Shown here one piece after another: positions 186 to 48,834 of a DNA stretch of 64,000 nt (position 1 is the stretch's first letter; each line of letters opens with the position of its first letter). The position numbers and the translations under genes were made by a program. This DNA is from Leptospirales bacterium (GTDB taxonomy: Bacteria > Spirochaetota > Leptospiria > Turneriellales > JAOUFE01), in NCBI GenBank assembly GCA_040326155.1, contig JBEQLE010000013.1, positions 1 through 64,000 on the forward strand, written 5' to 3'. The notes beneath the pieces were generated by a model. It saw nothing but the letters and a program-made list of their open reading frames with translations. It was not told the DNA's origin and did not search any database.

Positions 186-210
186 CCGTATAAACAATTT
201 GGAGAATACA

Positions 211-4821: not shown

Positions 4822-4825
4822 TAAA

Positions 4826-11988: not shown

Positions 11989-12060
11989 TGGCCACCTACT
12001 ATAATACTTATCGATAAAACACGGAGTATAATTAAACGAGTTCCCTGTTTTCGGTAAGAA

Positions 12061-14841
12061 TCATTTATTATTTTCTCTATTATCATTATACACACTGAAA
12101 TTACCGCGACCAGTTTGCTTCACAGAATATAATGCTTTATCAGCTTTTCGCAACAATTCTTCAATACTGGTTCCATTATCTGGAAATACGCTGATTCCTA
12201 TGCTTACGCTTGCTTCTATTTTTGTATTGCTAATTTGAAAAGGCGATGTAGTTTTCCTTAGTATCTGTTTAGCCGTACGCTGCACATCCTTTGGATTTTC
12301 TAATAAAGTGTAAATTATCGCAAATTCGTCACCACCTAAACGCGCTACGGTATCGGTAGCACGGCTTTCTTTTTGTAAAATATCAGCAATATGTTTTAAT
12401 ACAGCGTCGCCAACAGGGTGGCCGTGAGTATCGTTAATTTTCTTAAAGTTATCAATGTCAATAATGAAAATCGCAAATTTATTATCTAGTCGAGTTGCCA
12501 GAGAAACGGCATCTTGCAATTGGTGATTGAACAAATACCTGTTAGCCACTCTTGTCAGCGCATCCGTTGTCGCCATTTTTCGAATTCTTTCTTCCGCCGC
12601 TTTTTCATTTGTGATGTCCGAAAACTGGGCTACGCGATTCACCGTTCCATCTTCTTTCTTCACAGTATTAATTAGAAGTTGTTCCGGGTAAATCTCTCCA
12701 TTTTTTCGGCGATTCCAAATCTCCCCTTCCCAATGACCCGTGGTATTTAAAGAAGCCCAGAATTCTTCATAAAAAAGCTGACCTTGACGTCCCGATTTTA
12801 GCAAACCAGGGTCTTTCCCGATCACTTCTTTTTCAGAGTAACCGGTAACCCGTGTAAAGGCCGGGTTAACACTGATAATTTGATTCACGTTATCTGTAAT
12901 CATCATAGCCTGGGTAGAATTATCAAATACCGTAGCGCTTAATTTTACAATGTCTTCAACCATCTTTCGTATGGTAATATCTTGAACAATTGCTATTATA
13001 TTCGTTATGGAACCCTCTTCTTTGCCAGATGTGGATACGGTCAAGTCAACCCAAATATCCGTACCCTCTTTTTTCTTATATCTTTTTTCAACATGGTAAT
13101 AATCTATTTCATTTGCCATTAACCGTTTCAACAAAACTGAATTTCCCTCAACATCATCCGGATGAATTAAATCGCCAAATTTCATTCCCAGCAACTCTTC
13201 TTCTGAATAACCTGTCATTTCACAAAAGGCCGGGTTCACCATCGTGTATTTGTAATGCATATCCAAAATCTTCATCCCGACTTTCGAATGATTAAAAGCT
13301 TTTCGGAACCTTTCCTCACTCTCTTTTAGAGCCAGCTCAACCATTTTACTGGCCGTTACATCTCTTGAAATTCCAAACAGACCCATTACCTTTCCCTGGT
13401 CATCAACCCAGGGAACTTTTGTTGTGGATACCCATGGCTTCTCCCCTCCAACCGGCTCACCACCCTCCACTCGGTTGATTACGCGAACTCCTTTTTCAAT
13501 GACCTGTTTGTCATCTGGAATCGAATATTTTGTTATCTCCGGTGGGAATAGATCCTCATCTTGTTTTCCTATAACCTCTTCGACAGGACGATGGAATAAT
13601 TTTGAAAATGATTTACTGACACGAACAAATTTACGGTGAACATCTTTGAAATATATAAAATCTGGAGAGTTGTCCAGTAGTGTTTGCAGTGTTTTTTGTG
13701 CATATTTCAGTTGTTTTTCGGATGATAATCGTTCCGTAATGTCAAGTATTATAGCAATAAACACATCTTGCATCTTATATTTTGTAAGTTGCAAATGCAC
13801 TTCCACATTATAAACCGAATTATCCTTTCTTTTGTGAATAGTAGTGAAAATAATTTTATCAAGTTTACCTGTCCTCAGAGGCTCAATTAACTCATTAAAT
13901 GTATTTATATTGTACTCCGGTTTAATATCCAGAGGGGTCATTTTTTTCAAATCTGACATTGAATATCCGAGGTTTTTTTGTGCTCCCCGGTTTACATGAA
14001 CAAACTTATATGTGCCTGCATCGAATATATATATTTCGTTTAAAGAATCTTCAATAATCCTTCCCAGACTGACTACCGACCGCTCAGCTCTCTTTCTCTC
14101 CGTAATGTCACGCACACTGGAACGATATCCCATGGAACTACCATCTGTATCATAGATCGGTTGCCAGGAAATTGCAGCCCAACAGGTACTACCATCTTTG
14201 CATATAACTCGAAATTCTACATCATTTCCAGTTTTTTCCTTCGATGCATCAAGCTGGTATTGACGAATAATCTTATGATCTTCTTCATCAGTCAATTCAA
14301 GTGGATAATTTTCCATAGAGTAGCACTCTTTTTCATTGTAGCCGGTTAATCGAGTTACACCGGAATTTACCCAGATAAGTTTTCCGTCACTGGCATGCCA
14401 ACTTTCCCAGTCATAAGTATAATCAGCTATCGCTCGGTATCTATTTTCACTATTTTTAAGAGATTGCTCGGTTTGTTTTTGTTCACTGATATTTCGGATG
14501 ATTCCCTCAATAGCGATTAACGATCCATTTTGGTCATACACGGGAACATTATGTTGCTCTATCCAGAAATCAGTTCCATCTTTATGTATCCAGCGCAAGG
14601 TTTCGACCTTACCCTCCGGGGGAATCTGTTCGATAGAATCAAGAAAAGAGAGATCATCCGGGTGTTGCAACTTGCGCCATATTTCCGAATCATCATAGTA
14701 TTCTTTTGGTGTATAACCTGTAATTTTTTTTGCAGAAGGGCTTACATATTCAAAACCAATTGGCTTAGACAAACGATATCGATAAATTAGATCTTTACTG
14801 TTTTCAACAAGAACAAGAAAATATGAATTACCTACACTCAT
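12061..14841 (-). CDS. Multi-PAS diguanylate cyclase
   Basis: About six PAS/PAC repeats, DIDNFK, I-site RATD and GGDEF. ATG at 14841 is preferred because of the SD AGGAAG and the promoter at 14862-14890. Confidence 0.93.
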   Translation of the reverse strand: MSVGNSYFLVLVENSKDLIYRYRLSKPIGFEYVSPSAKKITGYTPKEYYDDSEIWRKLQHPDDLSFLDSIEQIPPEGKVETLRWIHKDGTDFWIEQHNVPVYDQNGSLIAIEGIIRNISEQKQTEQSLKNSENRYRAIADYTYDWESWHASDGKLIWVNSGVTRLTGYNEKECYSMENYPLELTDEEDHKIIRQYQLDASKEKTGNDVEFRVICKDGSTCWAAISWQPIYDTDGSSMGYRSSVRDITERKRAERSVVSLGRIIEDSLNEIYIFDAGTYKFVHVNRGAQKNLGYSMSDLKKMTPLDIKPEYNINTFNELIEPLRTGKLDKIIFTTIHKRKDNSVYNVEVHLQLTKYKMQDVFIAIILDITERLSSEKQLKYAQKTLQTLLDNSPDFIYFKDVHRKFVRVSKSFSKLFHRPVEEVIGKQDEDLFPPEITKYSIPDDKQVIEKGVRVINRVEGGEPVGGEKPWVSTTKVPWVDDQGKVMGLFGISRDVTASKMVELALKESEERFRKAFNHSKVGMKILDMHYKYTMVNPAFCEMTGYSEEELLGMKFGDLIHPDDVEGNSVLLKRLMANEIDYYHVEKRYKKKEGTDIWVDLTVSTSGKEEGSITNIIAIVQDITIRKMVEDIVKLSATVFDNSTQAMMITDNVNQIISVNPAFTRVTGYSEKEVIGKDPGLLKSGRQGQLFYEEFWASLNTTGHWEGEIWNRRKNGEIYPEQLLINTVKKEDGTVNRVAQFSDITNEKAAEERIRKMATTDALTRVANRYLFNHQLQDAVSLATRLDNKFAIFIIDIDNFKKINDTHGHPVGDAVLKHIADILQKESRATDTVARLGGDEFAIIYTLLENPKDVQRTAKQILRKTTSPFQISNTKIEASVSIGISVFPDNGTSIEELLRKADKALYSVKQTGRGNFSVYNDNRENNK

Positions 14842-14861
14842 GAAATTTCTTCCTATATTAT

Positions 14862-14890
14862 ATAATACCATATGTGAACAACCTGAGCAA
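14862..14890 (-). promoter_or_regulatory. Putative sigma70 promoter of the multi-PAS DGC
   Basis: Minus strand reads TTGCTC-17 nt-TATTAT with an extended -10 TG. Confidence 0.5.
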
Positions 14891-14999
14891 GTAATTTCTC
14901 AAACTTTTTACAAGGAATCGGTTTTTATATAAAGGTAAATTACCAACATTTTCAAATAATTTCTTTACTCACACGGTTTAACATGCGATATGTATTCCA

Positions 15000-16052
15000 A
15001 TGCCAAACAAACTACTGTTCGTAGACGATGAAAGAGATTTTGAGGTTTTAATAAAACAGCGTTTACGAAAAAAAATTAAAGAAGATAACCTGGAGCTGTT
15101 TTTTGCATATGACGGAAGTCATGCATTAAAAATTCTGGAAGAAAACAAAGGTATCCACGTAATATTTACAGACATCAACATGCCAAAAATGGACGGACTA
15201 ACACTGCTCAGCAAAATAAATGAACTGCCTGAATTAAGGCAAACCGTAATTATTTCTGCCTATGGAGATATGAACAATATACGTACTTCTATGAATAGAG
15301 GAGCCTTCGACTTTTTAACGAAACCTTTGAATTTTGAAGATATGGATATTACCCTTGAAAAAGTGAGGTCATATGTTCGCAAAGTTCTTCTTGAAAAAGA
15401 AGAAAAAGAGCTACTGGAGAAGGAACTCGACATTTCCCAAAAAGAGGTTATCTATAAACTGGCAGAAATTGTGGAGGCCAGGTCAAAAGAGACGGGCAAC
15501 CATGTTCGCAGGGTGGCAAACTATTCAAAAGTTTTGGCATTGGGTTATGGTTTAAGTGAACAGGAAGCTGAAGAGTTAAAAATGGCGTCACCGATTCATG
15601 ACGTTGGCAAAATTGCCATTGCGGATGCTATTTTATGTAAACCGGGAAAGTTGACCGAAGAAGAATTTGAAAAAATGAAAACACACACAACTTCCGGGTA
15701 TGAAATACTGCAAAAATCGAACAGGAAAATATTTCAAAATGCGGCAATTGTCGCTTATGAACACCATGAAAAGTTTGACGGTTCCGGGTATCCTCGGGGT
15801 TTAAAAGGAAATAAAATACATATTTATGGTCGCATTACTGCCGTGGCTGATGTGTATGATGCGCTGGGTTCAGAACGAGTTTACAAAAAAGTCTGGCCGG
15901 AAGAAAAAATTCATAAACTGTTTAAAGAACAAAGCGGTAAACATTTTGAACCAAAACTGATCGATGTTTTTTTCGAAAGCCTGGAGCAACTTCATGAAAT
16001 TAAAAATATGCATAAAGATGTACAAACCGGCGCTTCAATGTCTGAATTATGA
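15000..16052 (+). CDS. Response regulator with HD-GYP phosphodiesterase domain
   Basis: REC (VDD, TDINMP, TKP), HDVGK, HHEKFDGSGYP and ADVYDAL. Confidence 0.93.
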   Translation: MPNKLLFVDDERDFEVLIKQRLRKKIKEDNLELFFAYDGSHALKILEENKGIHVIFTDINMPKMDGLTLLSKINELPELRQTVIISAYGDMNNIRTSMNRGAFDFLTKPLNFEDMDITLEKVRSYVRKVLLEKEEKELLEKELDISQKEVIYKLAEIVEARSKETGNHVRRVANYSKVLALGYGLSEQEAEELKMASPIHDVGKIAIADAILCKPGKLTEEEFEKMKTHTTSGYEILQKSNRKIFQNAAIVAYEHHEKFDGSGYPRGLKGNKIHIYGRITAVADVYDALGSERVYKKVWPEEKIHKLFKEQSGKHFEPKLIDVFFESLEQLHEIKNMHKDVQTGASMSEL

Positions 16053-16085
16053 TTGACGCTGATATTAGTGAATGTCTAATAGAGT

Positions 16086-17222
16086 ATGAATGAAGAAATT
16101 CTTATCTCTATTCTTGTTGTTGATGATGAACCAGATCTTGAACCGCTGGTATTGCAGACATTTCGATCGGAAATTAAAGAAAAAAAATATGAATTCTTTT
16201 TTGCCTCAGATGGGGCAGAGGCTCTTTCTATTTTAGAAGAATACCCTGAAATATGTCTTGTTTTAACAGATATAAATATGCCGGTAATGGATGGGTTAAC
16301 ATTATTAAAAAAAATAAATGAATTGCATGAAAATAATAAAAATGGTGGAATTCGAAAAGTCATAATTGTTTCCGCATATGGAGATATGGAAAATATCAGG
16401 GCGGCCATGAATGAACGCGCTTATGATTTTCTAACGAAACCAATCGACTTGAAAGACCTTAAGGTTACGGTTGAAAAAACTCTTGATGAAATAGAAAAAA
16501 TTAATTCTCACATTCTTGAAAAGAAAAAATATCAAATGGAGAAAGAGTCGCTATCGAGATACTTTTCCAGTGACATTGTCGAAAAAATACTGAAAGAAGA
16601 TTTTCACCAGAAAATGATCGGGGGCAATGAAACAGCTTCCATTTTATTTCTCGATATTCGGGGTTTTACCACAATCAGCGAAACCTTAAAACCCGATAAA
16701 GTGGCAGACCTGTTAAATAGAATCTATCCCGATTTTATGGAGTTAATTCTCAGTCACAAAGGCTCTGTAAATAAATTAATTGGAGACGCCATGGTGGCCA
16801 CATTTGGTCTACCCATTGCGACTGCTGATGACGCCTACAACGCGGTAAAAACTGCCATAGAAATTATAAAATGGGTTGAGATGTTTTCGAAAATAAAACC
16901 TGATTATCTGGGCGATCAAGAGATAAAAATCGGTATCGGCATTACCACAGGTGAAGTTTTTGCAGGTAATATCGGCTCGTTTCGTCGTCTGGAATACACT
17001 GTAATCGGTGATGTTGTAAATACCGCCAGTCGCCTTCAAAACCTGACTAAAAAAGTCGGCGTTGACATTCTAATTGACGGAGAGACAAAAAAACATCTGG
17101 GCGATCTGGTTACAACTCGAAAGGTGCGCGTTAAATCTATTCGTGGAAAAAAAGAACGTATAGAGATATTTACCGTAGATGATTTAGTATCCAAAGAAAG
17201 TGATGATGTAGATTATTTTTAA
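16086..17222 (+). CDS. Response regulator fused to class III adenylate cyclase
   Basis: REC domain plus FLDIRGFT, KLIGDA and YTVIGDVVNTASRLQ. The Lys/Thr specificity residues suggest ATP as substrate. Confidence 0.92.
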   Translation: MNEEILISILVVDDEPDLEPLVLQTFRSEIKEKKYEFFFASDGAEALSILEEYPEICLVLTDINMPVMDGLTLLKKINELHENNKNGGIRKVIIVSAYGDMENIRAAMNERAYDFLTKPIDLKDLKVTVEKTLDEIEKINSHILEKKKYQMEKESLSRYFSSDIVEKILKEDFHQKMIGGNETASILFLDIRGFTTISETLKPDKVADLLNRIYPDFMELILSHKGSVNKLIGDAMVATFGLPIATADDAYNAVKTAIEIIKWVEMFSKIKPDYLGDQEIKIGIGITTGEVFAGNIGSFRRLEYTVIGDVVNTASRLQNLTKKVGVDILIDGETKKHLGDLVTTRKVRVKSIRGKKERIEIFTVDDLVSKESDDVDYF

Positions 17223-17261
17223 TTTGTTTCGGATAAAAAAGAAAAAGAACAACAGAAAATT

Positions 17262-18497
17262 TCAACTCATCAATTGACCCGCAATATAACCTGTGGTCCA
17301 CGCAGCCTGAAAATTAAACCCTCCGGTTACGCCATCTATATCTAAAACTTCACCGGCAAAATAGAGGCCTTTGTGTTTTTTACTCTCCATTGTCATATGA
17401 TGAATCTCAGACAAATCGACGCCTCCGCAGGTTACAAACTCTTCTTTGAACGTTGTTTTTCCTTCCACCAGAAATTCATCATGACAGATAAATTGAACCA
17501 ATCGATAAATCTCCTTCTTAGAAAGGTCTCTCCATAGTTTATCTATATCCAGATTTGCTTTTGTAAGTAGGTAGACCCAGAACCGCTGCGACCAGCCGGA
17601 ATAATGGTTCTTTATTTTCTGTTTCGATAATTTTTCTTTGAATGCAAAAAGATCGTTTTGCCAGATCTCGGCATTATTTTGCGACCAATTTACAACCATT
17701 TTAAACCTGTAATTTATATCGTGCAAAGCTCTGGCTGCTACAGAAGATATTTTTAAGACAGCGGGACCGCTTAACCCCCAGTGAGTTATAATCATATCGC
17801 CGTTTTCCCGTAATCTCAACTCTGGAATTTTTACAGAAACAGAAGGGAAAGATAACCCCATTAAGTCTGTTAATGCTTTATCGTTAATATTAAAACTGAA
17901 TAAAGAAGCTACAGGGTTGTTTATTTTTATTTCCGTTGCGAAAAGAAAACTATTTTTACTCAGTCCGCCGGTTGTAATAATTACTTTGTCTGCAACTATT
18001 GTTTTCTTGTTCGCCTCAGCACTGCCCGAGCCTGTCTGTTTTTTCTTGACGGTTATTTCGAACGCTTTTTGCTCATCCGGAAAAGAGATCCTGGTAACAT
18101 CACAACCGGTTTGAATATGTATATTTAGTTTCCTGGCGTTTTCGAGAAAACAATCGATAATAGTCTGGGAGCTACCACTTTGCGGGAATATCCGGTTATC
18201 CGGTTGTGTCATTAAACGAACATTGCGATCTTCAAACCACTGAATTGTATCTTTTGGTTGAAACTGATGAAAAGCTTTTTTTAAGAAACTACCGCCCCTG
18301 GGGTAAAATGAAACCAATTTCGGAATATCAAAACACGAGTGAGTGACATTGCACCGACCACCGCCAGAAATTTTAACTTTAGAAAGAACCGTGTCAGCCT
18401 TCTCCAGAATCGTCACATTACATTCAGGGTTATGTTCTTTTACAGAAAGCGCGGCAAAAAAACCGGCAGCGCCTCCGCCCACTACGACAACATCCAT
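17262..18497 (-). CDS. HI0933/BaiN-family flavoprotein
   Basis: GGGAAG, KVKISGGGRCNVT, THWGLSGPAVL, VTCGGV and GEVLDIDGVTGGFNFQAAW. Confidence 0.93.
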   Translation of the reverse strand: MDVVVVGGGAAGFFAALSVKEHNPECNVTILEKADTVLSKVKISGGGRCNVTHSCFDIPKLVSFYPRGGSFLKKAFHQFQPKDTIQWFEDRNVRLMTQPDNRIFPQSGSSQTIIDCFLENARKLNIHIQTGCDVTRISFPDEQKAFEITVKKKQTGSGSAEANKKTIVADKVIITTGGLSKNSFLFATEIKINNPVASLFSFNINDKALTDLMGLSFPSVSVKIPELRLRENGDMIITHWGLSGPAVLKISSVAARALHDINYRFKMVVNWSQNNAEIWQNDLFAFKEKLSKQKIKNHYSGWSQRFWVYLLTKANLDIDKLWRDLSKKEIYRLVQFICHDEFLVEGKTTFKEEFVTCGGVDLSEIHHMTMESKKHKGLYFAGEVLDIDGVTGGFNFQAAWTTGYIAGQLMS

Positions 18498-18666
18498 TTA
18501 TTATAGACGCGCTTTTGTAGATTCTTTGTCAATTGTTTATATTTTTAAAATAAACTTACTTTGAATTTGATATCCATGCATGAAATTAATGATTTACGTT
18601 GTACATTATTGCAATACACTTGGCAATAATCCAGGTTTTTAAAACAATTATTAAAAGAGGTCAAAA

Positions 18667-18915
18667 ATGAATATTTACATCGGAAATTTACCTTTCACAA
18701 CTTCAGAAGCCGAGTTAAACGAAGCATTTGTAAAGTTTGGTGAAGTCGTCTCCACCAATATTATTACGGATAAATTTAGCGGGAGATCTAAAGGGTTTGC
18801 CTTTGTCGAAATGGCAAATACAGAGGACGGAGTAAAAGCGATAGCCGAACTCAATGGAACTTCCATGAACGATCGTGAAATTAAAGTAAACGAAGCAAAA
18901 CCACGCGAATCCTGA
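18667..18915 (+). CDS. RRM RNA-binding protein
   Basis: RNP2 IYIGNL, RNP1 KGFAFVEM and VNEAKPR. A possible in-frame tail follows the TGA (see findings). Confidence 0.95.
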   Translation: MNIYIGNLPFTTSEAELNEAFVKFGEVVSTNIITDKFSGRSKGFAFVEMANTEDGVKAIAELNGTSMNDREIKVNEAKPRES

Positions 18916-19192
18916 CAAGACAATCGTGGCAGCGGTTCTTACGACCGCTAAAAGATGCAGCTTCGCAGTACATATAAAGCGGACAAACTTTCTAGAATGC
19001 ATTCGTATAATATATATTTTTAAAATATATTGTGAATTGCGCCTTTACTATTAGTCTAGTTTTGTTTATATTTAGCAAAGAGATTGTGACCATATAATAT
19101 ACGTCCAAAAACTGGTAATTTTTCATAAATTCATAAGAAAAATGGAAGTAAAGGTAGCTGGAAATCATATCACGATTCAAGCAGGACAATAG

Positions 19193-22100
19193 ATGAGTGT
19201 TTTAAACAAGCTTAATATTCGCAGTAAAATTATAGCAGGCTTCGCAATTTTACTCGGTTCTTTTATTGTGTTTACTATTTTCGGTATTTACGAATTAAAC
19301 TCAATGGGTGAAATTACGACCAAACTTTACAACCACCCTTTAAACGTTTCTAATGCCTCGCTTCGCGCCAGCATGGGTGTAATAAAAATGCACCGGGGAA
19401 TGAAAGATGCCATTATAGCAAAAAACGATTATGAAAGAGAAATCGCAATATATACCGTTCAAGAAGAAGAACATGAGGTAATCGAGAACCTCAATATAGT
19501 AAAAGATAAAATTCTGGGAAACGAAGGCCATTTGCTCGAAGAAGAAACCAGAGAGCTGTTTTTAAACTGGAAACCTATACGCGATGAGGTCATGACCCTT
19601 TTAATTGCCGGTAAAAAAATTGAGGCGGCGTCCATAACAAAAGAGAAAGGGGCCGCTTATGTAAGGCTGGTTGAAAACAAAATGCTTGAACTGACCAGCT
19701 ACTCGCGCAACAAAAGCAACGAATTTATGAATACGGCGGAAAAAACTAAAATAAGGGTGATCACTATTTCAATTGCTCTGGTTGTCTTTCTTATTATACT
19801 GATGGCTTTAATTGCATCCATAATACTAAAAAGTATATTAGAGCCAATTCTTTCTTTTAAAAAAACTATATCGAATATAACCGAAACAGGTAAACTCAGT
19901 GAAGCCGACGTTCCGGGTAACAATGAAATAACAGAGATAACAAAAGACTTTAATAAGCTTATTAAATGGCTGGAACGGGAAATCTGGGATAAAGATGGTC
20001 AAACCATGCTCAGCGGGGCTATTCGCCGTGAAAGTGACCATGTAGCAGTTTCCCAGAGTATATTAAATTTTCTATGCGACTATCTGAATTACCAGGTTGG
20101 GATATTGTACTTAAAAGATCATAATTATGACGATACATACAGGCTTATGGCTACTTATGCTTACAGGACACGCAACAGTAATCATTCCGTTATAAAAAAC
20201 GGGGAAGGGCTGGCTGGACAAGCGGCACTTGAACAAAAAATCATTGTTTTTAAAGACGTACCACTGGAAAATTCTTCCCTGAAAATTGAGTCCGGATTTA
20301 GCGATATAAAACCCCACTCCATTGTCGTCATTCCATTGATTTTTCAAGACAATGTTATCGGTATTATTGAACTTGGTTCCACTCATGCTATTGAAAATTA
20401 CGAATACAATTTTCTAAAACGTGTATCAGAACATATCTCGGCTTCTCTGGCTTCTACCATCACCAATACCGAAATGGCTGAACTACTGAACCTGTCGAAA
20501 GCCCAGGCCAAAGAGTTATCCGACTCGTATGAAAACCTGAAGCTTCAATCGGAGCAACTGGAAAAATCTGAAGTTGTATTAAAAGAGAAACAAAAAAACC
20601 TCGAAGAAGCCAATAGCTTATTGACCAAATCGTCCAAAACAATTCAAAGCAAAGCGTTTGAGTTACAAAAAAGCAGCAAATACAAATCGGAATTTTTAGC
20701 CAACATGTCGCATGAATTGCGCTCGCCCTTAAACAGTATCATTTTGTTATCTCAAATGCTCTCTGAGAATAAAACTGAAAACCTCTCTGAAAAACAAGTT
20801 AAATTCGCAAAAACTATATATTCAAGTTCCACTGAGTTACTGCAATTGATTAACGATGTTCTTGACCTCTCGAAAATTGAAGCGGGAAAATTTGATCTGA
20901 AACTGGAACCTGTTATATTAACGGATCTGTTGCGTGAAATTGAAGATCGCTTCAGCGCTCAATTTGAAAATAAAAAAATTAAATTCACAACTTCACTAGC
21001 GAAAAATAGTCCGGATAAAATAATCACCGATTATAAACTTTTAACCCAGATTCTCAACAACTTTATAACCAACGCTTTGAAATTTACCAAAAAAGGTTTA
21101 GTGAGTGTAACTGTTGGGCGTCCCAGAAAAGATGAAAAAAACACTAAAACAATCAACCAAAATGTTATCCACCCGGAAACATCCCTGGCAATTCGGGTAA
21201 CCGATACCGGTATCGGTATAGCGCCCGAAAAACAAGACGATGTTTTTGGTTCTTTTCAACAAGTAGACGGTACCGCAAGCCGAGAATACGAAGGAACCGG
21301 CCTTGGATTATCGATAGCAAAAAAACTGGCAAATTTGTTAAACGGGAATATTTTACTACAAAGTAACCCCGGCGAAGGCAGTACCTTTACCCTGATTATA
21401 CCGGAAGAACTCGGGACAACATCAGAGTTGGTAGTTGCAGAAGAAGCGGATTCTTCGGTCGATGAAATAAGCGAACCAGTTAATATAAAAGAAAAACTTC
21501 TACATAAAAACAAAGTTCTGATTATTGAAGACGATGAAAGTTTTTCCGGTATTATTGAAGAAATTGGCGAGACGAAAAACATATCGGTAATCAGTGCGAC
21601 TAACGGAGAAAGCGGCCTGAAACTGGCCCGCGAGATCGTTCCTGATTTTATACTTCTTGATATTTACTTGGACGGAATGACCGGATGGGAGGTTCTTGAA
21701 AAATTAAAAAATGACAAGATTACAAAAAATATTCCCGTTCAAATTCTATCCGTAGCCAGAGTTGAAGATGAAGAAAAACTAAAGGACATTTTCGGTTATA
21801 GCGAAAAACCCGTCTCCACTGCAGAGCTTGACAGAATTTTCGATGAAATTGCAAGGCAAATTCAAGTGGCTGGAATTACGTCTGTAACGCAAGAAGATCC
21901 GGAAATATTAATTATAGATGATGATGATGAATATGTGAAACTTCTGAAAAAAGAGATGAAAAAAAGAAATTTTAAATTTGCCAGCGTGCCGAACGGAACA
22001 CGCGGTATCGATCTTGCGCGAAAATCCATACCCGATCTTATATTGCTTGATATTTATTTACCCGATATGAACGGGTGGGACATTGTTCGTATTCTGAAAG

Positions 22101-22681
22101 AAGACAAGAAAACCAGGGGTATACCGATTCAAGTCATTACTGTAGATCGAAACCGATCGCTTGAAAAAAATCTTGAAATATATGATTTTCATTCTAAACC
22201 GATTGTAGATAAGGAAATTAGTCAATTATTCGAAAAAATTGAGAAAATGATAAACAGTGTTGATTCAAAAAAAACTGACAAAAAGATTGATGAAAGTGAA
22301 ATGGAACAACTTCACAATAAAAAGATTCTTCTCGTAGATGATAATATGCGAAGTGTATATGCGCTGCTTCCTTATCTTGAAGACAATAAAATGTCCGTTC
22401 AGGTAAGAACAAACGGAAAAACCGCTCTTGAATATCTACATGGAAACCCTGAAACAGATATTGTTCTTATGGACATAATGATGCCCGAAATGGATGGTTA
22501 TGAGGCAATAACAAAAATACGGGCTGATAAAAAGTTAAAAGAAATTTCAGTAATTGCAGTTACTGCCAAGGCGATGGCCGGTGAAAAAGAAAAAATACTT
22601 AAAATCGGAGCTAACGATTATATTCCAAAGCCTATTGATATAAATCTATTGTTTAAAACAATGATAAAAATGGTAAATTAA
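19193..22681 (+). CDS. Hybrid sensor histidine kinase (4HB sensor, HAMP, GAF, HisKA, HATPase, three REC)
   Basis: FLANMSHELRSPLN, NALKFT, DTGIGI, GTGLGL and three receiver domains. Confidence 0.94.
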   Translation: MSVLNKLNIRSKIIAGFAILLGSFIVFTIFGIYELNSMGEITTKLYNHPLNVSNASLRASMGVIKMHRGMKDAIIAKNDYEREIAIYTVQEEEHEVIENLNIVKDKILGNEGHLLEEETRELFLNWKPIRDEVMTLLIAGKKIEAASITKEKGAAYVRLVENKMLELTSYSRNKSNEFMNTAEKTKIRVITISIALVVFLIILMALIASIILKSILEPILSFKKTISNITETGKLSEADVPGNNEITEITKDFNKLIKWLEREIWDKDGQTMLSGAIRRESDHVAVSQSILNFLCDYLNYQVGILYLKDHNYDDTYRLMATYAYRTRNSNHSVIKNGEGLAGQAALEQKIIVFKDVPLENSSLKIESGFSDIKPHSIVVIPLIFQDNVIGIIELGSTHAIENYEYNFLKRVSEHISASLASTITNTEMAELLNLSKAQAKELSDSYENLKLQSEQLEKSEVVLKEKQKNLEEANSLLTKSSKTIQSKAFELQKSSKYKSEFLANMSHELRSPLNSIILLSQMLSENKTENLSEKQVKFAKTIYSSSTELLQLINDVLDLSKIEAGKFDLKLEPVILTDLLREIEDRFSAQFENKKIKFTTSLAKNSPDKIITDYKLLTQILNNFITNALKFTKKGLVSVTVGRPRKDEKNTKTINQNVIHPETSLAIRVTDTGIGIAPEKQDDVFGSFQQVDGTASREYEGTGLGLSIAKKLANLLNGNILLQSNPGEGSTFTLIIPEELGTTSELVVAEEADSSVDEISEPVNIKEKLLHKNKVLIIEDDESFSGIIEEIGETKNISVISATNGESGLKLAREIVPDFILLDIYLDGMTGWEVLEKLKNDKITKNIPVQILSVARVEDEEKLKDIFGYSEKPVSTAELDRIFDEIARQIQVAGITSVTQEDPEILIIDDDDEYVKLLKKEMKKRNFKFASVPNGTRGIDLARKSIPDLILLDIYLPDMNGWDIVRILKEDKKTRGIPIQVITVDRNRSLEKNLEIYDFHSKPIVDKEISQLFEKIEKMINSVDSKKTDKKIDESEMEQLHNKKILLVDDNMRSVYALLPYLEDNKMSVQVRTNGKTALEYLHGNPETDIVLMDIMMPEMDGYEAITKIRADKKLKEISVIAVTAKAMAGEKEKILKIGANDYIPKPIDINLLFKTMIKMVN

Positions 22682-22683
22682 AA

Positions 22684-24819
22684 ATGGAAAAAAATCTGCC
22701 ACTGATCTTAATCGTCGACGATAAATCCGAAAATATTATTGTATTAGAAAATCTGCTGGAAGATTTTGACGTCCGTCTTTTTTCGGCTCAATCAGGCAAC
22801 GAAGCTCTGGAGCTTTGCCTTCAGCATGACTTTTCTTTAATCATGATGGACGTTTCAATGCCCGAAATGGATGGATTTGAAGCCTCGAAATTAATTCAAA
22901 CCCGACGAGATGTTCCCATTATATTTATTACCGCTTTTGCAAAAGATTGGTCGAGCGAACTCAAAGGGTATGAAAGCGGAGCAATTGATTACATAACGAA
23001 ACCGATTGATCCGGTAATTATTAAAAGCAAAGTAAAAATTTTATTAGAGCTCAATTACAAATCTAAGGAGTTACTTCGAATTTCAGAAAAATTGTCTAGC
23101 ATAAATAGTTCACTTTTAAATGAAATAGTGGAAAGAAAACTTGCCCAGGAAAAAGTACGGAAATTTTCTTTAGCTATTGAACAAAGCCCCGTTTCCATAT
23201 TGATAACCGACATTGAAGGAAATATTGAATATATTAATTCTAAATTTTGCCATGTCACCGGATATTCCCACAATGAAGTGATGGGCAAAAACCCCCGCTT
23301 CTTAAAATCGGGAAAAATGCCACAGGAAGGTTACAAACACCTTTGGCAAAAAATTTCCAAGGGAGATACATGGACAGGGGAATTATTGAATAAAAAAAAA
23401 GATGGCGGGTTAATCTGGGAACGAACAAAGATTACTCCTATCAAAGATGGTAAAGACCAAATTACTCACTACCTGGGCGTCTATGAAGATATTACGGAAG
23501 AAAAAGCTCAAGAAGAAAAACTACTGAGAATGGCTTATTTCGACGAGCTGACTGGCCTGCCTTCGCGTTCCATGCATCTGGCCAGACTTGCCCATGAAAT
23601 ATCACGCACAAAACGTACTGAAAATAAAGTCGCTTTGTTTTTTATCGACCTCGATGGTTTTAAAAATATTAATGATATTTACGGGCACTCGTTAGGCGAC
23701 CAGTTATTGATCAGTGTAGCCGAAAGAATGAAAGAGGCAACTCGTATTTCCGATAACATAACCAGAATCGGTGGCGATGAATTTTGTGTCATAATAAGCG
23801 ATGTCCAGGTGCCTATGGAAGTCGAAACTGCGGCGAAAAGAATTATAAAAGCATTTGCAGAGCCATTTCAAATAGAACATAAAAAAATTTCAATAACGTG
23901 TAGCATTGGAATTGCCTTGTACCCTGATGATGCGGAAGATCCGGAAGATTTATATTCTAAGGCCGACACGGCAATGTACAAAGTAAAAAACAGCGGTCGT
24001 AACCACTATCAATATTTTACTCAGGAAATGAATATTGCTTTAAAAAAACGCTACCAGTATGAAAGCGCTTTAAGCACTGCTTTAAAAAATAATGAATTAA
24101 GAATGGTCTACCAGCCTATTGTTGAATTAGCCCTGCAAAAAGTAATTGGATTCGAAGCTCTACTTCGCTGGGAACATCCCTCTTTTGGTAATGTACCACC
24201 GGAACAATTTATTAAAATTGCAGAAGAGATGGGTTTAATTAATCCTATTGGTGAGTGGGTTATAGAAACAAGTTGTAAAGCAATTGCTAACATACGTGAG
24301 CAAACCGGTTACCCCTATAGCTTATCGGTAAATGTTTCAGCCCACCAGTTTCATACGGGAACTCTTTGCGCTGCAATTGAGAGTGCTCTGAAAAGAAATA
24401 AACTAGATTCGAAAACATTACAACTTGAACTAACGGAAAATATAATTATTCAAAGTCGCTCAGGCGTTTTAAAGGAGCTGGAGAAAATACAAAGTCTTGG
24501 CGTTAAACTCTGCATCGACGATTTCGGTACCGGGTATTCCTCATTGGCCTATTTAATAAAGTATTATTTTGATTTTGTTAAAATTGACAAAATGTTTATT
24601 ATGGATTATAAAAAAGGGGAAAAGCACGAGTCTTTGCTCAATGCAATTATTGGCATGGCTAACGGGATGAAAATACAATTGATCGCGGAAGGTATTGAAA
24701 CAAAGGAACAACAAAATTATTTAATTGAAAGAAACTGTACTTTTGGTCAAGGGTTTTACCTTTCAAGACCGATGGAATACGAAAACGTTCTAAAATTCAA
24801 AGGTGTAGATAACAATTAA
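22684..24819 (+). CDS. REC-PAS-GGDEF-EAL protein
   Basis: REC, PAS, DLDGFK/GGDEF, FEALLRW, DDFGTGYSSL and AEGIE. Confidence 0.94.
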   Translation: MEKNLPLILIVDDKSENIIVLENLLEDFDVRLFSAQSGNEALELCLQHDFSLIMMDVSMPEMDGFEASKLIQTRRDVPIIFITAFAKDWSSELKGYESGAIDYITKPIDPVIIKSKVKILLELNYKSKELLRISEKLSSINSSLLNEIVERKLAQEKVRKFSLAIEQSPVSILITDIEGNIEYINSKFCHVTGYSHNEVMGKNPRFLKSGKMPQEGYKHLWQKISKGDTWTGELLNKKKDGGLIWERTKITPIKDGKDQITHYLGVYEDITEEKAQEEKLLRMAYFDELTGLPSRSMHLARLAHEISRTKRTENKVALFFIDLDGFKNINDIYGHSLGDQLLISVAERMKEATRISDNITRIGGDEFCVIISDVQVPMEVETAAKRIIKAFAEPFQIEHKKISITCSIGIALYPDDAEDPEDLYSKADTAMYKVKNSGRNHYQYFTQEMNIALKKRYQYESALSTALKNNELRMVYQPIVELALQKVIGFEALLRWEHPSFGNVPPEQFIKIAEEMGLINPIGEWVIETSCKAIANIREQTGYPYSLSVNVSAHQFHTGTLCAAIESALKRNKLDSKTLQLELTENIIIQSRSGVLKELEKIQSLGVKLCIDDFGTGYSSLAYLIKYYFDFVKIDKMFIMDYKKGEKHESLLNAIIGMANGMKIQLIAEGIETKEQQNYLIERNCTFGQGFYLSRPMEYENVLKFKGVDNN

Positions 24820-45313: not shown

Positions 45314-46030
45314 TTAGTTTCCCGGGGGACCGTACAGATGAAGATCTTTTATCGCTTCTCTGATCTTTTTTAAACTTGCAAAATCTGGATCGGTTTTATA
45401 TGTTAAATACGATTCTACTTTCTCAAGCCAGAGCGGATTGTTTGTCTCTTTAAATGCCAGGTATTCCCGATGTCCAATTACATATTGAATGGTGGGATAT
45501 TTATTTTTCAGGTATCGTATTAGTTTTATATTTGCATCGATCTGGTTTTGTGTTAAGAACATTTGATGTTTTGTTCCGCCAATATTTTCGATTCCGATTG
45601 CTGAATAGTTCAACCCTACGACATGTCTGGCAACGAAATCTTCTCGCATCATTTGCACGATTTTGCCGTCACGATCTACAAGGTAGGGTACGCTTACGTT
45701 GGCTTTGCCGTTTTTTTTCAATAACGGTCGTCCATTGTGCATCTGTTCGGTGTCGAAAATTTTCCAACTTGCCGACAACCCTCTGGACGCGGTCCAATGT
45801 ATAATTATTATTTTCGGTTCAAATCGTATGGAGTCGGTCCGTATACCATAGTGTTTCCGTAAATACTCTTTTGTCCATTCCACTCTTCTGTGCGAAAACT
45901 GTATGGGCATTTTTTCAATCCACGGCGGGGGGTCGAATATATCGGGCTTGCCCTCTTGTATCTCCGTTTGCGCAGGCGGCGCACATGCGAACATAAAGAT
46001 TAATAAATATATGTTTGACTGCTTCAACAT
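45314..46030 (-). CDS. N-acetylmuramoyl-L-alanine amidase (Amidase_2), lipoprotein
   Basis: IIHWT, YLVDRDG, ARHVVGLN, IGIEN, IGHREY and KTDP. Leader ends in MFAC. Confidence 0.9.
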   Translation of the reverse strand: MLKQSNIYLLIFMFACAPPAQTEIQEGKPDIFDPPPWIEKMPIQFSHRRVEWTKEYLRKHYGIRTDSIRFEPKIIIIHWTASRGLSASWKIFDTEQMHNGRPLLKKNGKANVSVPYLVDRDGKIVQMMREDFVARHVVGLNYSAIGIENIGGTKHQMFLTQNQIDANIKLIRYLKNKYPTIQYVIGHREYLAFKETNNPLWLEKVESYLTYKTDPDFASLKKIREAIKDLHLYGPPGN

Positions 46031-46241
46031 TTTGTTTCTTCTAGAGAGTGCGGGGCAACATGAAACTGTTGGTCGCTGAGTCAAATAGATTCATGTATCA
46101 TTTTAGCTTAAGAATATGGTCGACGAAGTCGTGGGATTTCCGAAGTATCGCAAACCTGAACAGGGTTTGTTTGTAGCTGTTGGCAAAATATTTTTTTATA
46201 AATAAGTGAAAAAAAAACCGTTTTTCCCCTATTATACAGAT

Positions 46242-46805
46242 ATGATTAATAAAAGTTATGGTTCATATCACAAGTTGGGCGTTTACGTCGATCGAATTCT
46301 GGAAATCAGATTATCACCGGAAACCTGGGAAAAAGTCAAAAAAATTGCTGATGCTAAAAAGTGCAGTTATTCCTGGGTAGTTCGATACTGCGTTTTTCGT
46401 TTAATCAAGCGTAAAAATCCGTTTATGTACATAACGAATCACGTTCTGAAGCAGGGGAAGCGTAAAAAATGGTTGAAATATCAAACGATGAATGAACGGG
46501 CAAAACAGCAGGTAGGCATTGATCATTTGCATCGTCATAAACTTTGTTTGTATGGAACTGACGAATTGTTCATACGTATTACCGCCAACATGATGTATTG
46601 TACCATGTCTCATTTAGTGCGTTTAGCTCTTGAATGGCATTTAGGTGAGCTGGAAAGGTTGTCGAGCGGTAAACCTGGGAAATTTCACCGTCTCGCGTTC
46701 TACTGGCTGGGCATTAAATTGTTCCGTGGTGTTGTTTTACCTACCTTACTACCTGAAAACGTGCGACTTCTGCTGGACAGATTCCAGGAAACTGAATACT
46801 GGTAG
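46242..46805 (+). CDS. Putative tandem ribbon-helix-helix DNA-binding protein (DUF1564-like)
   Basis: IRLSPETWEKVKKIADAKKCSYSWVVR and a second unit KLCLYGTDELFIRITANMMYCTMSHLVRLAL. Confidence 0.55.
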   Translation: MINKSYGSYHKLGVYVDRILEIRLSPETWEKVKKIADAKKCSYSWVVRYCVFRLIKRKNPFMYITNHVLKQGKRKKWLKYQTMNERAKQQVGIDHLHRHKLCLYGTDELFIRITANMMYCTMSHLVRLALEWHLGELERLSSGKPGKFHRLAFYWLGIKLFRGVVLPTLLPENVRLLLDRFQETEYW

Positions 46806-47043: not shown

Positions 47044-48336
47044 TTACTTAAACCAATACAGTTTTTGAATGGCTGCAAAAATAATCGGCACTAAAAGAGC
47101 AAACAATAGGGAGCCTGTGGCAAAAATCAGCTTATACATTATGCCGGATGACAAAAAGATACTCTCTATTGGCATATTTGCCATTAACCCTGTGACTGAT
47201 AAAATTGTTACAAATATCATTAGTGTAATGTTGAAATAGAATATCAGTTTTAATAACAAACTTTTATTAAAATAATTATTCGACTGGTTTGTAGAAACAT
47301 CTGCTCGTTGAAAATAACCTTCTTTCGTCAGGTAAAATATGGCAGACAAAATAATGAATGTATTTACGCCAATCAAACTGCCCATAGAGTGAGCTACCAC
47401 AAAATATGTACCATGAGTAATGTTATTTATCGAGGGAATGGACATCAACACTCCGGTAACAATCGAAAACAGAGTCCAGTAAACCGAATACATGGCAAAT
47501 GTAATATATATATCGTCAATATTGTTACTCTTTTCTGGAAAACGTTTCAGCCAAAGAGAAGCAATGGCGACCATACTCGCAGTAAAGGCGACCGTTTTCA
47601 AAATAGAAGGTTGGGGTGATGGATAAAAGTGATGACCGAAAGTCAGCAGCAAACCCACCAAAGAGATCATCAACGTGAATTGAAATTTCCAGCTGGAAAC
47701 GGAGTCGGCAAATTGCTTGCGCAATATAAATGATAAAATTCCATAGCCGATTAAATTCACCGAACCAAACAAGGAGTCGATGGCATGCCACTCAATGGCA
47801 ATGTCACGACCAATTGAAATCGATTCGTGGAACAGGTAATAATTTGATTCTATTAATGACGCGGGAAGGAGCAACAGACCAAGCGCAATCATCCAGGTGG
47901 ATTCTGAGAATATATTGTACGCTTTTTTTAGCGAGGCAAAAAACCAGAATACCAGAGATATAAATAATAAAATAAACACAATGGAGACAAACGGTGGCCA
48001 GGCTATATATTCTCGCCCCGTAAAATTTCCTGACATTATGAACCCGGCTGAGGTTAAAAACAACGCTGGAATTATCCAGGAAAATTCAGCTTTCAGGTTG
48101 ACTTTCATGAAAGCCAGAACAGATGCAATGGAACCGTTAATTACCCAGGACAACGCGAACAAAGTATGCAAGGGACGCAAAACCTGAAACGGTAAAAACT
48201 TAAACTCGGGGAAAATTCGGTGGTTAGATAAAAGCAAACCAAGAAATAAAGTAATGAATATACTAAACAAAGCGAATAGAAATAAAATTCTGGCGGCCTC
48301 ACCCGAGATGTTACGTTGAAAATACTTTTTCATCAT
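47044..48336 (-). CDS. Divergent heme-copper oxidase superfamily subunit I (NorB/CcoN-like)
   Basis: About 12 TM helices, with LRPLHT, GREY, GHHFY and VAHSMG. Confidence 0.8.
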   Translation of the reverse strand: MMKKYFQRNISGEAARILFLFALFSIFITLFLGLLLSNHRIFPEFKFLPFQVLRPLHTLFALSWVINGSIASVLAFMKVNLKAEFSWIIPALFLTSAGFIMSGNFTGREYIAWPPFVSIVFILLFISLVFWFFASLKKAYNIFSESTWMIALGLLLLPASLIESNYYLFHESISIGRDIAIEWHAIDSLFGSVNLIGYGILSFILRKQFADSVSSWKFQFTLMISLVGLLLTFGHHFYPSPQPSILKTVAFTASMVAIASLWLKRFPEKSNNIDDIYITFAMYSVYWTLFSIVTGVLMSIPSINNITHGTYFVVAHSMGSLIGVNTFIILSAIFYLTKEGYFQRADVSTNQSNNYFNKSLLLKLIFYFNITLMIFVTILSVTGLMANMPIESIFLSSGIMYKLIFATGSLLFALLVPIIFAAIQKLYWFK

Positions 48337-48713
48337 CTGGAAGTGTTCCTGGAATCGAAGGTGTATTGAAAATATGCGAGAAGTGAATTTACTTCGTCAT
48401 CAGAAAAACGAAAGGCTGGCATTTTACCAGTTCCGTTTAAAATTACCTGTCGAATATAAATATTATCTCTGCGACCGGCTAACTCGGTTAAATCGGGACC
48501 GAGAAAACCCCCGAGACCGTAAATCGAGTGGCATGAAATACAATTGTTTTTAAGCCAGATCTTTCGTCCTGAAATCGCCACCTCATTTATCTCATGTGAC
48601 GAATTTTCAAAATCGGGGATTCCGGATAAGACGAAGAAAACTGTAAAATAGGTAAATATGGAAAATGCAATAATGGCTTTAGTGTAATTATATGTCACCA
48701 ATTTTCCTGTCAA
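48333..48713 (-). CDS. Membrane-anchored monoheme cytochrome c (NorC-like)
   Basis: One TM, CISCH, GGFLGPDLT and distal Met in KMP. Overlaps the subunit I start. Confidence 0.88.
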   Translation of the reverse strand: MTGKLVTYNYTKAIIAFSIFTYFTVFFVLSGIPDFENSSHEINEVAISGRKIWLKNNCISCHSIYGLGGFLGPDLTELAGRRDNIYIRQVILNGTGKMPAFRFSDDEVNSLLAYFQYTFDSRNTSR

Positions 48714-48834
48714 TTTTATATATTAATTTAAAATTCAAAACTACTTTCGGTACAAGTTTACTAAAAACATCATTGTATCGATTTTATATATCAGCGACAA
48801 CGACAACCATTAAACTTAAGTCAAGCTTCGAAAT

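What the first reader, a model, noticed from the sequence alone, without database searches (positions are those of the whole stretch)
47044..48713. Divergent NorBC-like heme-copper enzyme with His-to-Met heme ligand and remodelled active-site helix
Seen: the helix II His (RPLH), GREY and the HH pair (GHHFY) are retained. The helix X HxH motif reads H-S-M (47383-47391), and the cNOR VHLWVEG segment is replaced by EWHAIDSLFG. Known: the second His of HxH ligates the low-spin heme, and the helix VI Glu ligates FeB in cNOR. Inference: a His/Met low-spin heme and an altered binuclear site, so possibly new chemistry or an electron-transfer-only role. No nir, nos or norQD genes are nearby.
Basis: partly seen in the sequence, partly recalled or inferred. 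Interest (0 to 1): 0.7.

Follow-up and report, generated by a model that had tools for sequence, protein, structure and literature searches.

The report
NorBC-like enzyme of the N2Ored family
This is an intact two-gene membrane enzyme related to bacterial nitric oxide reductase, with an unusual haem ligand and a rebuilt metal site, and it belongs to a family that has been named in print but never purified or assayed.

Summary
Window 47044-48336 (-) encodes a 430-aa haem-copper-superfamily subunit I. Window 48333-48713 (-) encodes a 126-aa NorC-like cytochrome c that overlaps it by 4 nt. The His-to-Met change (H316-S-M318) is not decay: Met stands there in 102 of 103 family sequences.

The enzyme is not a new family. 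In a tree it sits in a fully supported clade with a protein (KAF0182170.1) that Murali et al. 2024 list under their "N2Ored" family. That family is sister to cNOR/qNOR and has not been characterised biochemically.

Two independent alignments place cNOR's first FeB histidine on Asp187, not on His184. The family splits into two clades. One has Lys184/Gly187/Glu257 and is mostly Bacteroidota, often inside nos clusters. The other, which includes this gene, has His184/Asp187/Ala257 and has no conserved neighbour except the cytochrome c.

Most likely function is cytochrome-c-fed reduction of NO, used for detoxification here, because the genome shows no nirK, nirS or nosZ. N2O reduction, the published guess, is not excluded. 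I rate it a new member of a known kind, of moderate interest.

The parts
48333..48713 (-). NorC-like membrane-anchored mono-haem cytochrome c (126 aa; C58-x-x-C61-H62, M98-P99). The TTG start is uncertain.
   Evidence: A profile of 38 partners hits NorC 3o0r_C at 2e-20 and 4xyd_B at 3.8e-16. A homologue sits directly upstream of the subunit I gene in 72 of 81 loci and in 36 loci of the second set.
47044..48336 (-). NorB-like haem-copper-superfamily subunit I, 430 aa, 12 predicted transmembrane helices.
   Evidence: AF2 model pLDDT 88.3, pTM 0.90. Foldseek TM 0.81 to CcoN 8smr_E and 0.79 to NorB 3o0r_B.
48166..48177 (-). R54-P55-L56-H57. H57 is the helix II axial histidine of the low-spin haem.
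   Evidence: Aligned to RM(V/L)HT of cNOR and RP(L/I)HT of CcoN. H57 is present in 102 of 103 family sequences.
48007..48018 (-). G107-R108-E109-Y110. E109 aligns with the Ca-site glutamate of cNOR and cbb3.
   Evidence: E109 is present in 100 of 103 and Y110 in 102 of 103. The identity of the cNOR residue as Glu135 is recalled.
47848..47850 (-). E163, an invariant family-specific glutamate at the outer end of helix V. Its role is unknown.
   Evidence: Present in 103 of 103 family sequences. cNOR has F or T and CcoN has V at this column.
47764..47793 (-). Helix VI segment E182-W183-H184-A185-I186-D187-S188-L189-F190-G191. D187 occupies the column of the first FeB/CuB histidine. H184 is clade-specific.
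   Evidence: Position 187 is D in 39 of 39 (H/D clade) and G in 64 of 64 (K/G clade). Position 184 is H in 36 of 39 and K in 62 of 64.
47623..47637 (-). G234-H235-H236-F237-Y238, the helix VII histidine pair of the non-haem metal site.
   Evidence: H235 is present in 103 of 103 and H236 in 102 of 103.
47383..47415 (-). H308-G-T...A-H316-S-M318. H316 is the high-spin haem ligand. M318 replaces the second histidine, the low-spin haem ligand.
   Evidence: M318 is present in 102 of 103. All 12 aligned references have H at this column: 3 cNOR, 1 qNOR-like, 4 CcoN, 2 A-type and 2 B-type.
48772..48800 (-). Promoter-like site (TTGTCG-17-TACAAT) in the 121-nt gap between kbl and the cytochrome c gene.
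   Evidence: This is a consensus match only: 12 sites were found in the region against 6.9 +/- 2.6 in shuffles.

Best explanation
The two overlapping genes encode a NorC-like cytochrome c and a NorB-like catalytic subunit. They belong to the cNOR-related 'N2Ored' family of the haem-copper superfamily, in its His184/Asp187 clade.

Proposed mechanism:
- Electrons from a periplasmic donor enter the His62/Met98 haem c of the small subunit.
- They pass to a low-spin haem b held by His57 and Met318, which probably has a higher potential than the bis-His haem of cNOR.
- They then reach a high-spin haem (His316) that faces a rebuilt non-haem metal site made of His235, His236 and Asp187, with His184 as a possible fourth ligand.
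- Protons come from the periplasmic side, as in cNOR. E109 and the R177-D178 motif are retained, so turnover would not be electrogenic.

The most likely substrate is NO (2 NO + 2 e- + 2 H+ -> N2O + H2O). In this genome that would be detoxification rather than a step of denitrification.

Shown here: family membership, the subunit pair, the ligand substitutions and their conservation, and the phylogenetic position. Inferred: cofactor content, the metal, proton routing and the substrate.
For: - Membership. P0001 lies in the H/D clade (39 tips, support 1.0) of a monophyletic family (0.987) that is sister to cNOR plus a qNOR-like protein (0.992). Clade member P0019 carries accession KAF0182170.1, one of the 11 N2Ored leaves in Dataset S4 of PMC11214002.
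- Membership by elimination. Flavisolibacter ginsengisoli has four COX1 matches, one of them the family member. Dataset S6 lists A 1, B1 1, NOD 1, N2Ored 1 for it.
- Pair. The NorC-like partner is adjacent in 72 of 81 loci and in 36 loci of the second set, and its best PDB hit is NorC. Fused members carry further cytochrome c domains.
- Active site. Each clade keeps two His plus one N-donor at position 184 (H or K) plus one carboxylate (D187 or E257). That is the same inventory as cNOR's three His plus one Glu.
- NO link. In the sister clade, ScdA/hemerythrin genes occur in 30 loci and Rrf2 regulators in 16 of 81 loci. A bona fide Thermus norCB locus has the same kinds of neighbours.
- Public annotation. 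IMG names members 'nitric oxide reductase subunit B'.
Against: - In this clade the cNOR columns of E211, E215 and E280 hold S/T, N and A. The first FeB histidine is gone.
- No norQ/norD-like genes appear in any neighbourhood examined.
- The own genome (94.7% complete) shows no nirK, no nosZ, and only a sub-threshold nirS-like hit, so no internal NO source is evident.
- The H/D clade has no conserved functional neighbours.
- One H/D host (G045) has nirS with a further COX1 match, probably norB, beside it. The H/D enzyme is therefore not simply that genome's NOR.
- 46 of 50 K/G-clade genomes have nosZ, but only 6 of 50 have nirK over the cut-off and 0 of 50 have nirS. The family tracks N2O respiration more than nitrite reduction.
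- I could not inspect model coordinates, so the ligand geometry is inferred from alignment alone.
Confidence: 0.5

Rival explanations
1. It is a haem-based, NosZ-independent nitrous oxide reductase. This is the function Murali et al. proposed when they named the family, citing the membrane-bound, sulfide- and acetylene-insensitive N2O reductase activity of Flexibacter canadensis.
For: The proposal and its two references are in the main text of PMC11214002. Solitalea canadensis is listed with N2Ored = 1. K/G-clade genes sit at the end of nos clusters in about 30 of 81 loci. The own genome has no nosZ, so such an enzyme would add a capability. A His/Met haem of raised potential would suit a high-potential acceptor (inference).
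Against: There is no biochemical link between the activity and this protein. 46 of 50 K/G-clade genomes also have nosZ, and Dataset S8 lists nosZ for S. canadensis, so the published activity need not come from this enzyme. The H/D clade has a different ligand set from the Bacteroidota clade that prompted the idea.
Confidence: 0.15
2. It is a low-level O2- or NO-scavenging oxidase that protects O2/NO-sensitive enzymes. It would use the haem pair without canonical CuB chemistry.
For: It belongs to the cbb3/NOR branch. In K/G-clade loci it lies next to a ccoI-like P-type ATPase and the ccoNO/ccoP genes. An E1-E2 ATPase follows the gene in the H/D loci L100 and L101.
Against: No cross-link tyrosine is present. 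The column of the cbb3 helix VII Tyr is Leu, and helix VI has neither the His nor a Tyr. The CuB ligand set is incomplete. TIGR00780 ccoN scores 16.4 bits against a cut-off of 583.
Confidence: 0.08
3. It catalyses another reaction, or none. Options include a different N-oxide or small-molecule chemistry at a haem/Asp-His site (for example NO dismutation or hydroxylamine/nitroxyl handling), or a purely electron-transferring or sensing membrane cytochrome.
For: The active-site ligand set has no characterised precedent in the sources I could read. Family-specific invariant residues (E163, Q242 in this clade) have no counterpart in cNOR or cbb3. Gene context is heterogeneous. The gene was not found in 40 related genomes searched.
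Against: Strict conservation of the high-spin haem ligand, the HH pair and D187, together with a dedicated cytochrome c, is the pattern of a catalytic reductase. The nearest relatives are all N-oxide or O2 reductases.
Confidence: 0.2
4. It is a decaying or non-functional norB remnant.
For: Catalytic residues of cNOR are missing, and the gene stands alone in this lineage.
Against: Both reading frames are intact and translationally coupled. The substitutions are fixed across 39 clade members from several phyla. The AF2 model is confident.
Confidence: 0.02

Closest known systems
'N2Ored' family of the haem-copper superfamily (Murali, Hemp, Gennis et al., PNAS 2024, PMC11214002)
   Same: Same clade as a listed member (KAF0182170.1). 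Placed next to cNOR in the C-family branch. No active-site tyrosine. Cytochrome c partner.
   Different: Nothing that excludes membership. The paper's main text gives no active-site description for this family, and the SI Appendix could not be read. The split into Lys/Gly/Glu and His/Asp/Ala clades and the His/Met haem of this family are not mentioned in the text I could read.
cNOR (NorBC), e.g. Pseudomonas aeruginosa 3O0R and Roseobacter denitrificans 4XYD
   Same: 12-helix NorB fold. NorC-type subunit. Helix II His, the GRE(Y/F) calcium-site motif, the RD motif before helix VI, the HH pair, HGT and the high-spin haem His.
   Different: The low-spin haem ligand His is replaced by Met. The first FeB His is replaced by Asp. 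The columns of E211, E215 and E280 hold S, N and A. A new His184 and an invariant E163 are present. No norQD. Identity to NorB in the structural alignment is about 16-17%.
nNOR (B-family-derived putative NOR)
   Same: The low-spin haem is ligated by His and Met (stated in PMC11214002).
   Different: nNOR is related to the B family, has a CuA-type subunit, and keeps the cNOR-like three-His-plus-Glu site. This enzyme is in the C/NOR branch, has a cytochrome c subunit, and lacks that site. The His/Met ligation is therefore convergent.
gNOR
   Same: One of the three active-site histidines is replaced by aspartate.
   Different: gNOR is B-family-derived with a cupredoxin-fold subunit and probable quinol use. 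[quoted passage not shown]
cbb3 oxidase subunit CcoN
   Same: Fold (TM 0.81). The Q-W motif of helix VI aligns without gaps. GREY is present. NCBI annotates family members as 'cbb3-type cytochrome c oxidase subunit I'.
   Different: No CuB His in helix VI, no cross-link Tyr, and no CcoO/CcoP. TIGR00780 scores 16.4 bits against a cut-off of 583.

Membership tests
N2Ored (Murali et al. 2024) | Groups phylogenetically with sequences the authors list as N2Ored. | tested here: met
   P0019 is KAF0182170.1, which is listed as N2Ored in Dataset S4. P0001 and P0019 lie in one clade with support 1.0, inside a family with support 0.987.
N2Ored (Murali et al. 2024) | Close relative of cNOR within the C-family branch. 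| tested here: met
   The family is sister to three cNOR sequences plus a qNOR-like protein (0.992), with four CcoN sequences outside. The profile's best PDB hits are NorB.
N2Ored (Murali et al. 2024) | Lacks the active-site cross-link tyrosine. | tested here: met
   The column of the cbb3 helix VII Tyr is L229, and there is no Tyr in the helix VI segment. Dataset S5 lists '-' for Y244 in N2Ored.
N2Ored (Murali et al. 2024) | Scores with the authors' curated family HMM. | not testable with these tools
   The HMM is not available here.
cNOR (NorBC) | NorB fold with a NorC mono-haem cytochrome c subunit. | tested here: met
cNOR (NorBC) | Bis-histidine low-spin haem b (His60/His349 in P. aeruginosa numbering, recalled). 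| tested here: not met
   M318 stands in the column of the second His.
cNOR (NorBC) | FeB bound by three His and one Glu (H207, H258, H259, E211; numbering recalled). | tested here: not met
   The H207 column is D187 and the E211 column is S188. Only the HH pair is kept.
cNOR (NorBC) | Conserved glutamates near the site (E215, E280; numbering recalled). | tested here: not met
   These columns are N194 and A257 in this protein. The sister clade keeps E257.
cNOR (NorBC) | norQ/norD accessory genes in the operon (typical, not universal). | tested here: not met
   None in the window or in the neighbourhoods of 81 + 58 loci. The whole genome was not searched for norQ.
cbb3 oxidase (C family) | CuB bound by three His, His-Tyr cross-link, CcoO/CcoP subunits. 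| tested here: not met
   TIGR00780 scores 16.4 bits against a cut-off of 583. The partner is NorC-like, not CcoO.
nNOR | B-family descent with a CuA-type subunit II. | tested here: not met
   The tree places the protein in the C/NOR branch, away from the A and B references. The partner is a cytochrome c.

The most novel reading that the evidence does not exclude
The His184/Asp187 clade is a functionally distinct enzyme, not just a variant NOR. It would combine a high-potential His/Met haem b with a non-haem metal site rebuilt one helical turn higher (His184, Asp187, His235, His236), and it would reduce N2O or another small N-oxide without the copper enzyme NosZ. That would give organisms such as this one, which shows no nosZ, nirK or nirS, a hidden role in N2O or NO turnover.
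Probability: 0.13. Interest if true: 0.85.

Novelty: new member of a known kind. Interest (0 to 1): 0.45.

Why it matters
NO and N2O turnover are usually predicted from norB, nirK/S and nosZ marker genes. This family is annotated either as cbb3 oxidase or as norB. It has neither enzyme's catalytic residues and has never been assayed. In the species-genome collection, 235 stretches encode a relative. In 50 Bacteroidota-type hosts it travels with nosZ (46 of 50).

Knowing whether it makes or consumes N2O would change how those genomes are read in greenhouse-gas budgets. Mechanistically, the paired substitutions (Lys/Gly/Glu against His/Asp/Ala) are a natural experiment on how a haem/non-haem site can be rebuilt. 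The His/Met haem b has evolved here independently of nNOR.

Tried and rejected
- A single-sequence phmmer search against PDB gave nothing at E <= 1. Only the family profile reached NorB and CcoN.
- NCBIfam has no model for the family.
- tblastn of a family member against 72,556 plasmids found 398 records, all below 60% identity. The listed ones were about 20-33% identical and annotated norB or ccoN. I read this as no family member among them.
- No match to P0001 in the 40 related genomes searched, apart from a weak hit (E 5e-6) to a cbb3 gene.
- I tried to ask whether the module is an insertion next to kbl-tdh. A 61%-identical kbl exists in only one related genome (G009), so synteny could not be judged.
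- Sequencing runs: no RNA holder listed.
- Earlier findings of this scan: nothing for this genome or sequence. One unrelated nNOR report turned up.
- Model coordinates are not exposed to the script box, so distances between H184, D187, H235, H236 and the haem could not be measured.
- Complex prediction was not used. The subunit pairing already rests on synteny and NorC homology, and a pass would mostly reflect likeness to solved NorBC.
- The SI Appendix of PMC11214002 was too large to read and Dataset S2 is a picture. They may describe the N2Ored active site.
- Paper searches for further descriptions returned only the Murali papers and unrelated work. The searches were: 'N2Ored'; heme-copper + nitrous oxide reductase + Flexibacter canadensis; nos gene cluster + Bacteroidetes + cbb3; heme-copper + cNOR + methionine + low-spin heme.
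- The decay reading was rejected on conservation.

Full report
**What is there.**
On the minus strand, an ORF at 48333-48713 (126 aa) overlaps by ATGA an ORF at 47044-48336 (430 aa). The large protein matches Pfam COX1 (63.6 bits). The small one has an N-terminal hydrophobic helix, a CxxCH motif and a cytochrome c domain (PF13442).

HSM is at 47383-47391, EWHAIDSLFG at 47764-47793 and GHHFY at 47623-47637. RPLH and GREY are in the translation.

Upstream lie kbl- and tdh-like genes. Downstream lie an unassigned 199-aa ORF, an Amidase_2 gene and a YARHG-domain gene. No nir, nos or norQD gene was found among 47 ORFs of the 64-kb window.

**The family.**
A word-indexed search found only nine relatives. 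An exhaustive profile search of 1.84 billion representatives found 573 proteins at E <= 1e-3 and 155 at E <= 1e-30. The family is therefore small and sharply bounded, and the search did not pull in the superfamily's very numerous mainstream oxidases.

The profile of 92 full-length members hits NorB best among solved structures (4xyd_A 1.5e-31, 3o0r_B 1e-25). CcoN and qNOR follow. A confident AF2 model (pLDDT 88.3, pTM 0.90) superposes on CcoN and NorB with TM about 0.8.

A profile of 38 partner cytochromes hits NorC best, over nearly its whole length (3o0r_C 2e-20). A homologous cytochrome c lies directly upstream in 72 of 81 loci (80 genome loci plus this window). It does so in 36 loci of a second set of 58 (52 metagenome loci, five H/D genome loci and the window again). 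Rare 800-aa members carry extra C-terminal cytochrome c domains. 'NorBC-like' is therefore correct.

**Ligands.**
The HMMER alignment to NorB and CcoN agrees with a MAFFT alignment that includes three cNOR, four CcoN, a qNOR-like, two A-type and two B-type sequences. Residue roles and numbering in cNOR are recalled from the 3O0R literature.

| Residue in this protein | Assignment |
|---|---|
| H57 | Helix II haem histidine |
| E109 | Glutamate of the calcium site |
| H235/H236 | Helix VII pair |
| H316 | High-spin haem ligand |
| M318 | Column where every reference has the second histidine, the low-spin haem ligand |
| D187 | Column of the helix VI histidine of FeB/CuB |
| H184 | Three residues earlier than D187; references have an aromatic residue, or Cys in the qNOR-like one |

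**Conservation and two clades.**
In 103 family sequences, Met318 is present in 102. H235 and H316 are present in 103, and a family-specific E163 in 103.

A FastTree (LG+gamma, 115 sequences) gives a monophyletic family (support 0.987). It is sister to cNOR plus qNOR-like (0.992), with CcoN outside. The family is divided into two clades.

| Clade | Tips | Support | Position 184 | Position 187 | Position 257 (cNOR E280 column) |
|---|---|---|---|---|---|
| K/G | 64 | 0.905 | Lys, 62 of 64 | Gly, 64 of 64 | Glu, 63 of 64 |
| H/D (contains this gene) | 39 | 1.0 | His, 36 of 39 | Asp, 39 of 39 | Ala, 35 of 39 |

Each clade thus keeps two histidines, one further nitrogen donor and one carboxylate. 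That is the inventory of cNOR's FeB site, supplied from different positions. I infer that a non-haem metal site is retained but rewired.

**Already in print.**
Murali et al. 2024 (PMC11214002; I read the passages and sections 5 and 7, and searched the supplements) list a family 'N2Ored'. [quoted passage not shown]

Two links tie this gene to that family:
- One of their 11 N2Ored tree leaves, KAF0182170.1, is the accession of P0019, an H/D-clade member.
- Flavisolibacter ginsengisoli has four COX1 matches, with open frames of 612, 599, 795 and 480 aa. Their table lists A 1, B1 1, NOD 1, N2Ored 1 for it.

The gene is therefore a member of a named but uncharacterised family. The text I could read does not describe this family's active site. 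It attributes His/Met ligation only to nNOR. It also says that gNOR is the first family to replace an active-site histidine, which does not fit what I see in N2Ored. The SI Appendix could not be read.

**Context and function.**
In the K/G clade, mostly Chitinophagaceae and other Bacteroidota, about 30 of 81 loci show the following order:

nosZ - fasciclin - nosL - nosD - nosF - nosY - (ScdA-type di-iron protein) - cytochrome c - this enzyme - (ccoI-like ATPase) - cbb3 genes

Rrf2 regulators occur in 16 loci and Crp-type regulators in 19.

Among 50 of those genomes:

| Feature | Count |
|---|---|
| nosZ present | 46 of 50 |
| nirK over the cut-off | 6 of 50 |
| nirS | 0 of 50 |
| Three or fewer COX1 matches (mostly A-type, ccoNO and this enzyme) | 31 of 50 |

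A genuine Thermus norCB locus has ScdA_N and Rrf2 neighbours too, which fits an NO-related role.

The H/D clade has no conserved neighbour other than the cytochrome c. Its five genome hosts are mixed: nirK in 1 of 5, nosZ in 2 of 5, nirS in 1 of 5. The window's own genome (94.7% complete) shows none of these. It carries two other oxidases, one A-type and one B-like with a CuA subunit. The gene was not found in 40 related genomes.

**Verdict.**

- The most likely function is cytochrome-c-dependent NO reduction used for detoxification (confidence about 0.5).
- N2O reduction, the published guess, is about 0.15. It is weakened, though not excluded, by near-universal co-occurrence with nosZ in the sister clade.
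- Decay is excluded by conservation.

Novelty is 'new member of a known kind'. What this analysis adds, relative to the text I could read, is the two-clade compensatory ligand pattern and the family-wide His/Met haem.

Noticed in passing
L004-L083 (genome loci), e.g. L058:972-2978, L054:3886-5118, L019:4816-5553: In Bacteroidota, the Lys/Gly clade of the family sits at the end of clade-II-type nos clusters (nosZ, fasciclin, nosL, nosD, nosF, nosY, ScdA) and just before a ccoI-like ATPase and the cbb3 genes. 46 of 50 such genomes have nosZ, but only 6 of 50 have nirK and none has nirS.
   Followed up: partly
PMC11214002, section 7, against the alignment: [quoted passage not shown] In the N2Ored family, the helix VI histidine column is Gly (64 of 64) or Asp (39 of 39).
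   Followed up: partly
L032:5158-7684: One His/Asp-clade gene is followed by an SCP2 protein and two U32 peptidase-family genes. From recall, this looks like the O2-independent ubiquinone pathway genes ubiT/U/V, which hints at low-oxygen use.
   Followed up: no
window 45314-46084 (-) and L036:9213-10034: An Amidase_2 (N-acetylmuramoyl-L-alanine amidase) gene lies just downstream of the enzyme, both in this window and in the Caulobacteraceae locus L036. This may be coincidence.
   Followed up: no
window 46206-46805 (+): A 199-aa ORF between the enzyme and the amidase gene has no Pfam or NCBIfam match.
   Followed up: no
window 47848-47850 (E163): A glutamate at the outer end of helix V is invariant in all 103 family sequences and absent from cNOR and cbb3. 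No role could be assigned to it.
   Followed up: partly
window 10222-24819: A dense block of signalling genes: GGDEF, PAS-GGDEF, response regulator-HD, response regulator-cyclase, hybrid histidine kinase and GGDEF-EAL.
   Followed up: no
window 199-6557: A bacterial alpha-2-macroglobulin (1540 aa) is followed by a DUF2135 protein and a transpeptidase-domain protein.
   Followed up: no
G000:C83:37792-39072 (L002): The genome's second oxidase is a divergent 478-aa subunit I with a 183-aa CuA-type subunit II. It scores far below the NCBIfam cut-offs for aa3 oxidases and has an insertion in the helix VI region in my alignment.
   Followed up: no
G045:C50:14660-18421: One His/Asp-clade host also has nirS, with a further COX1 match (probably norB) beside it, and nosZ. 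There the enzyme coexists with a full denitrification set.
   Followed up: no
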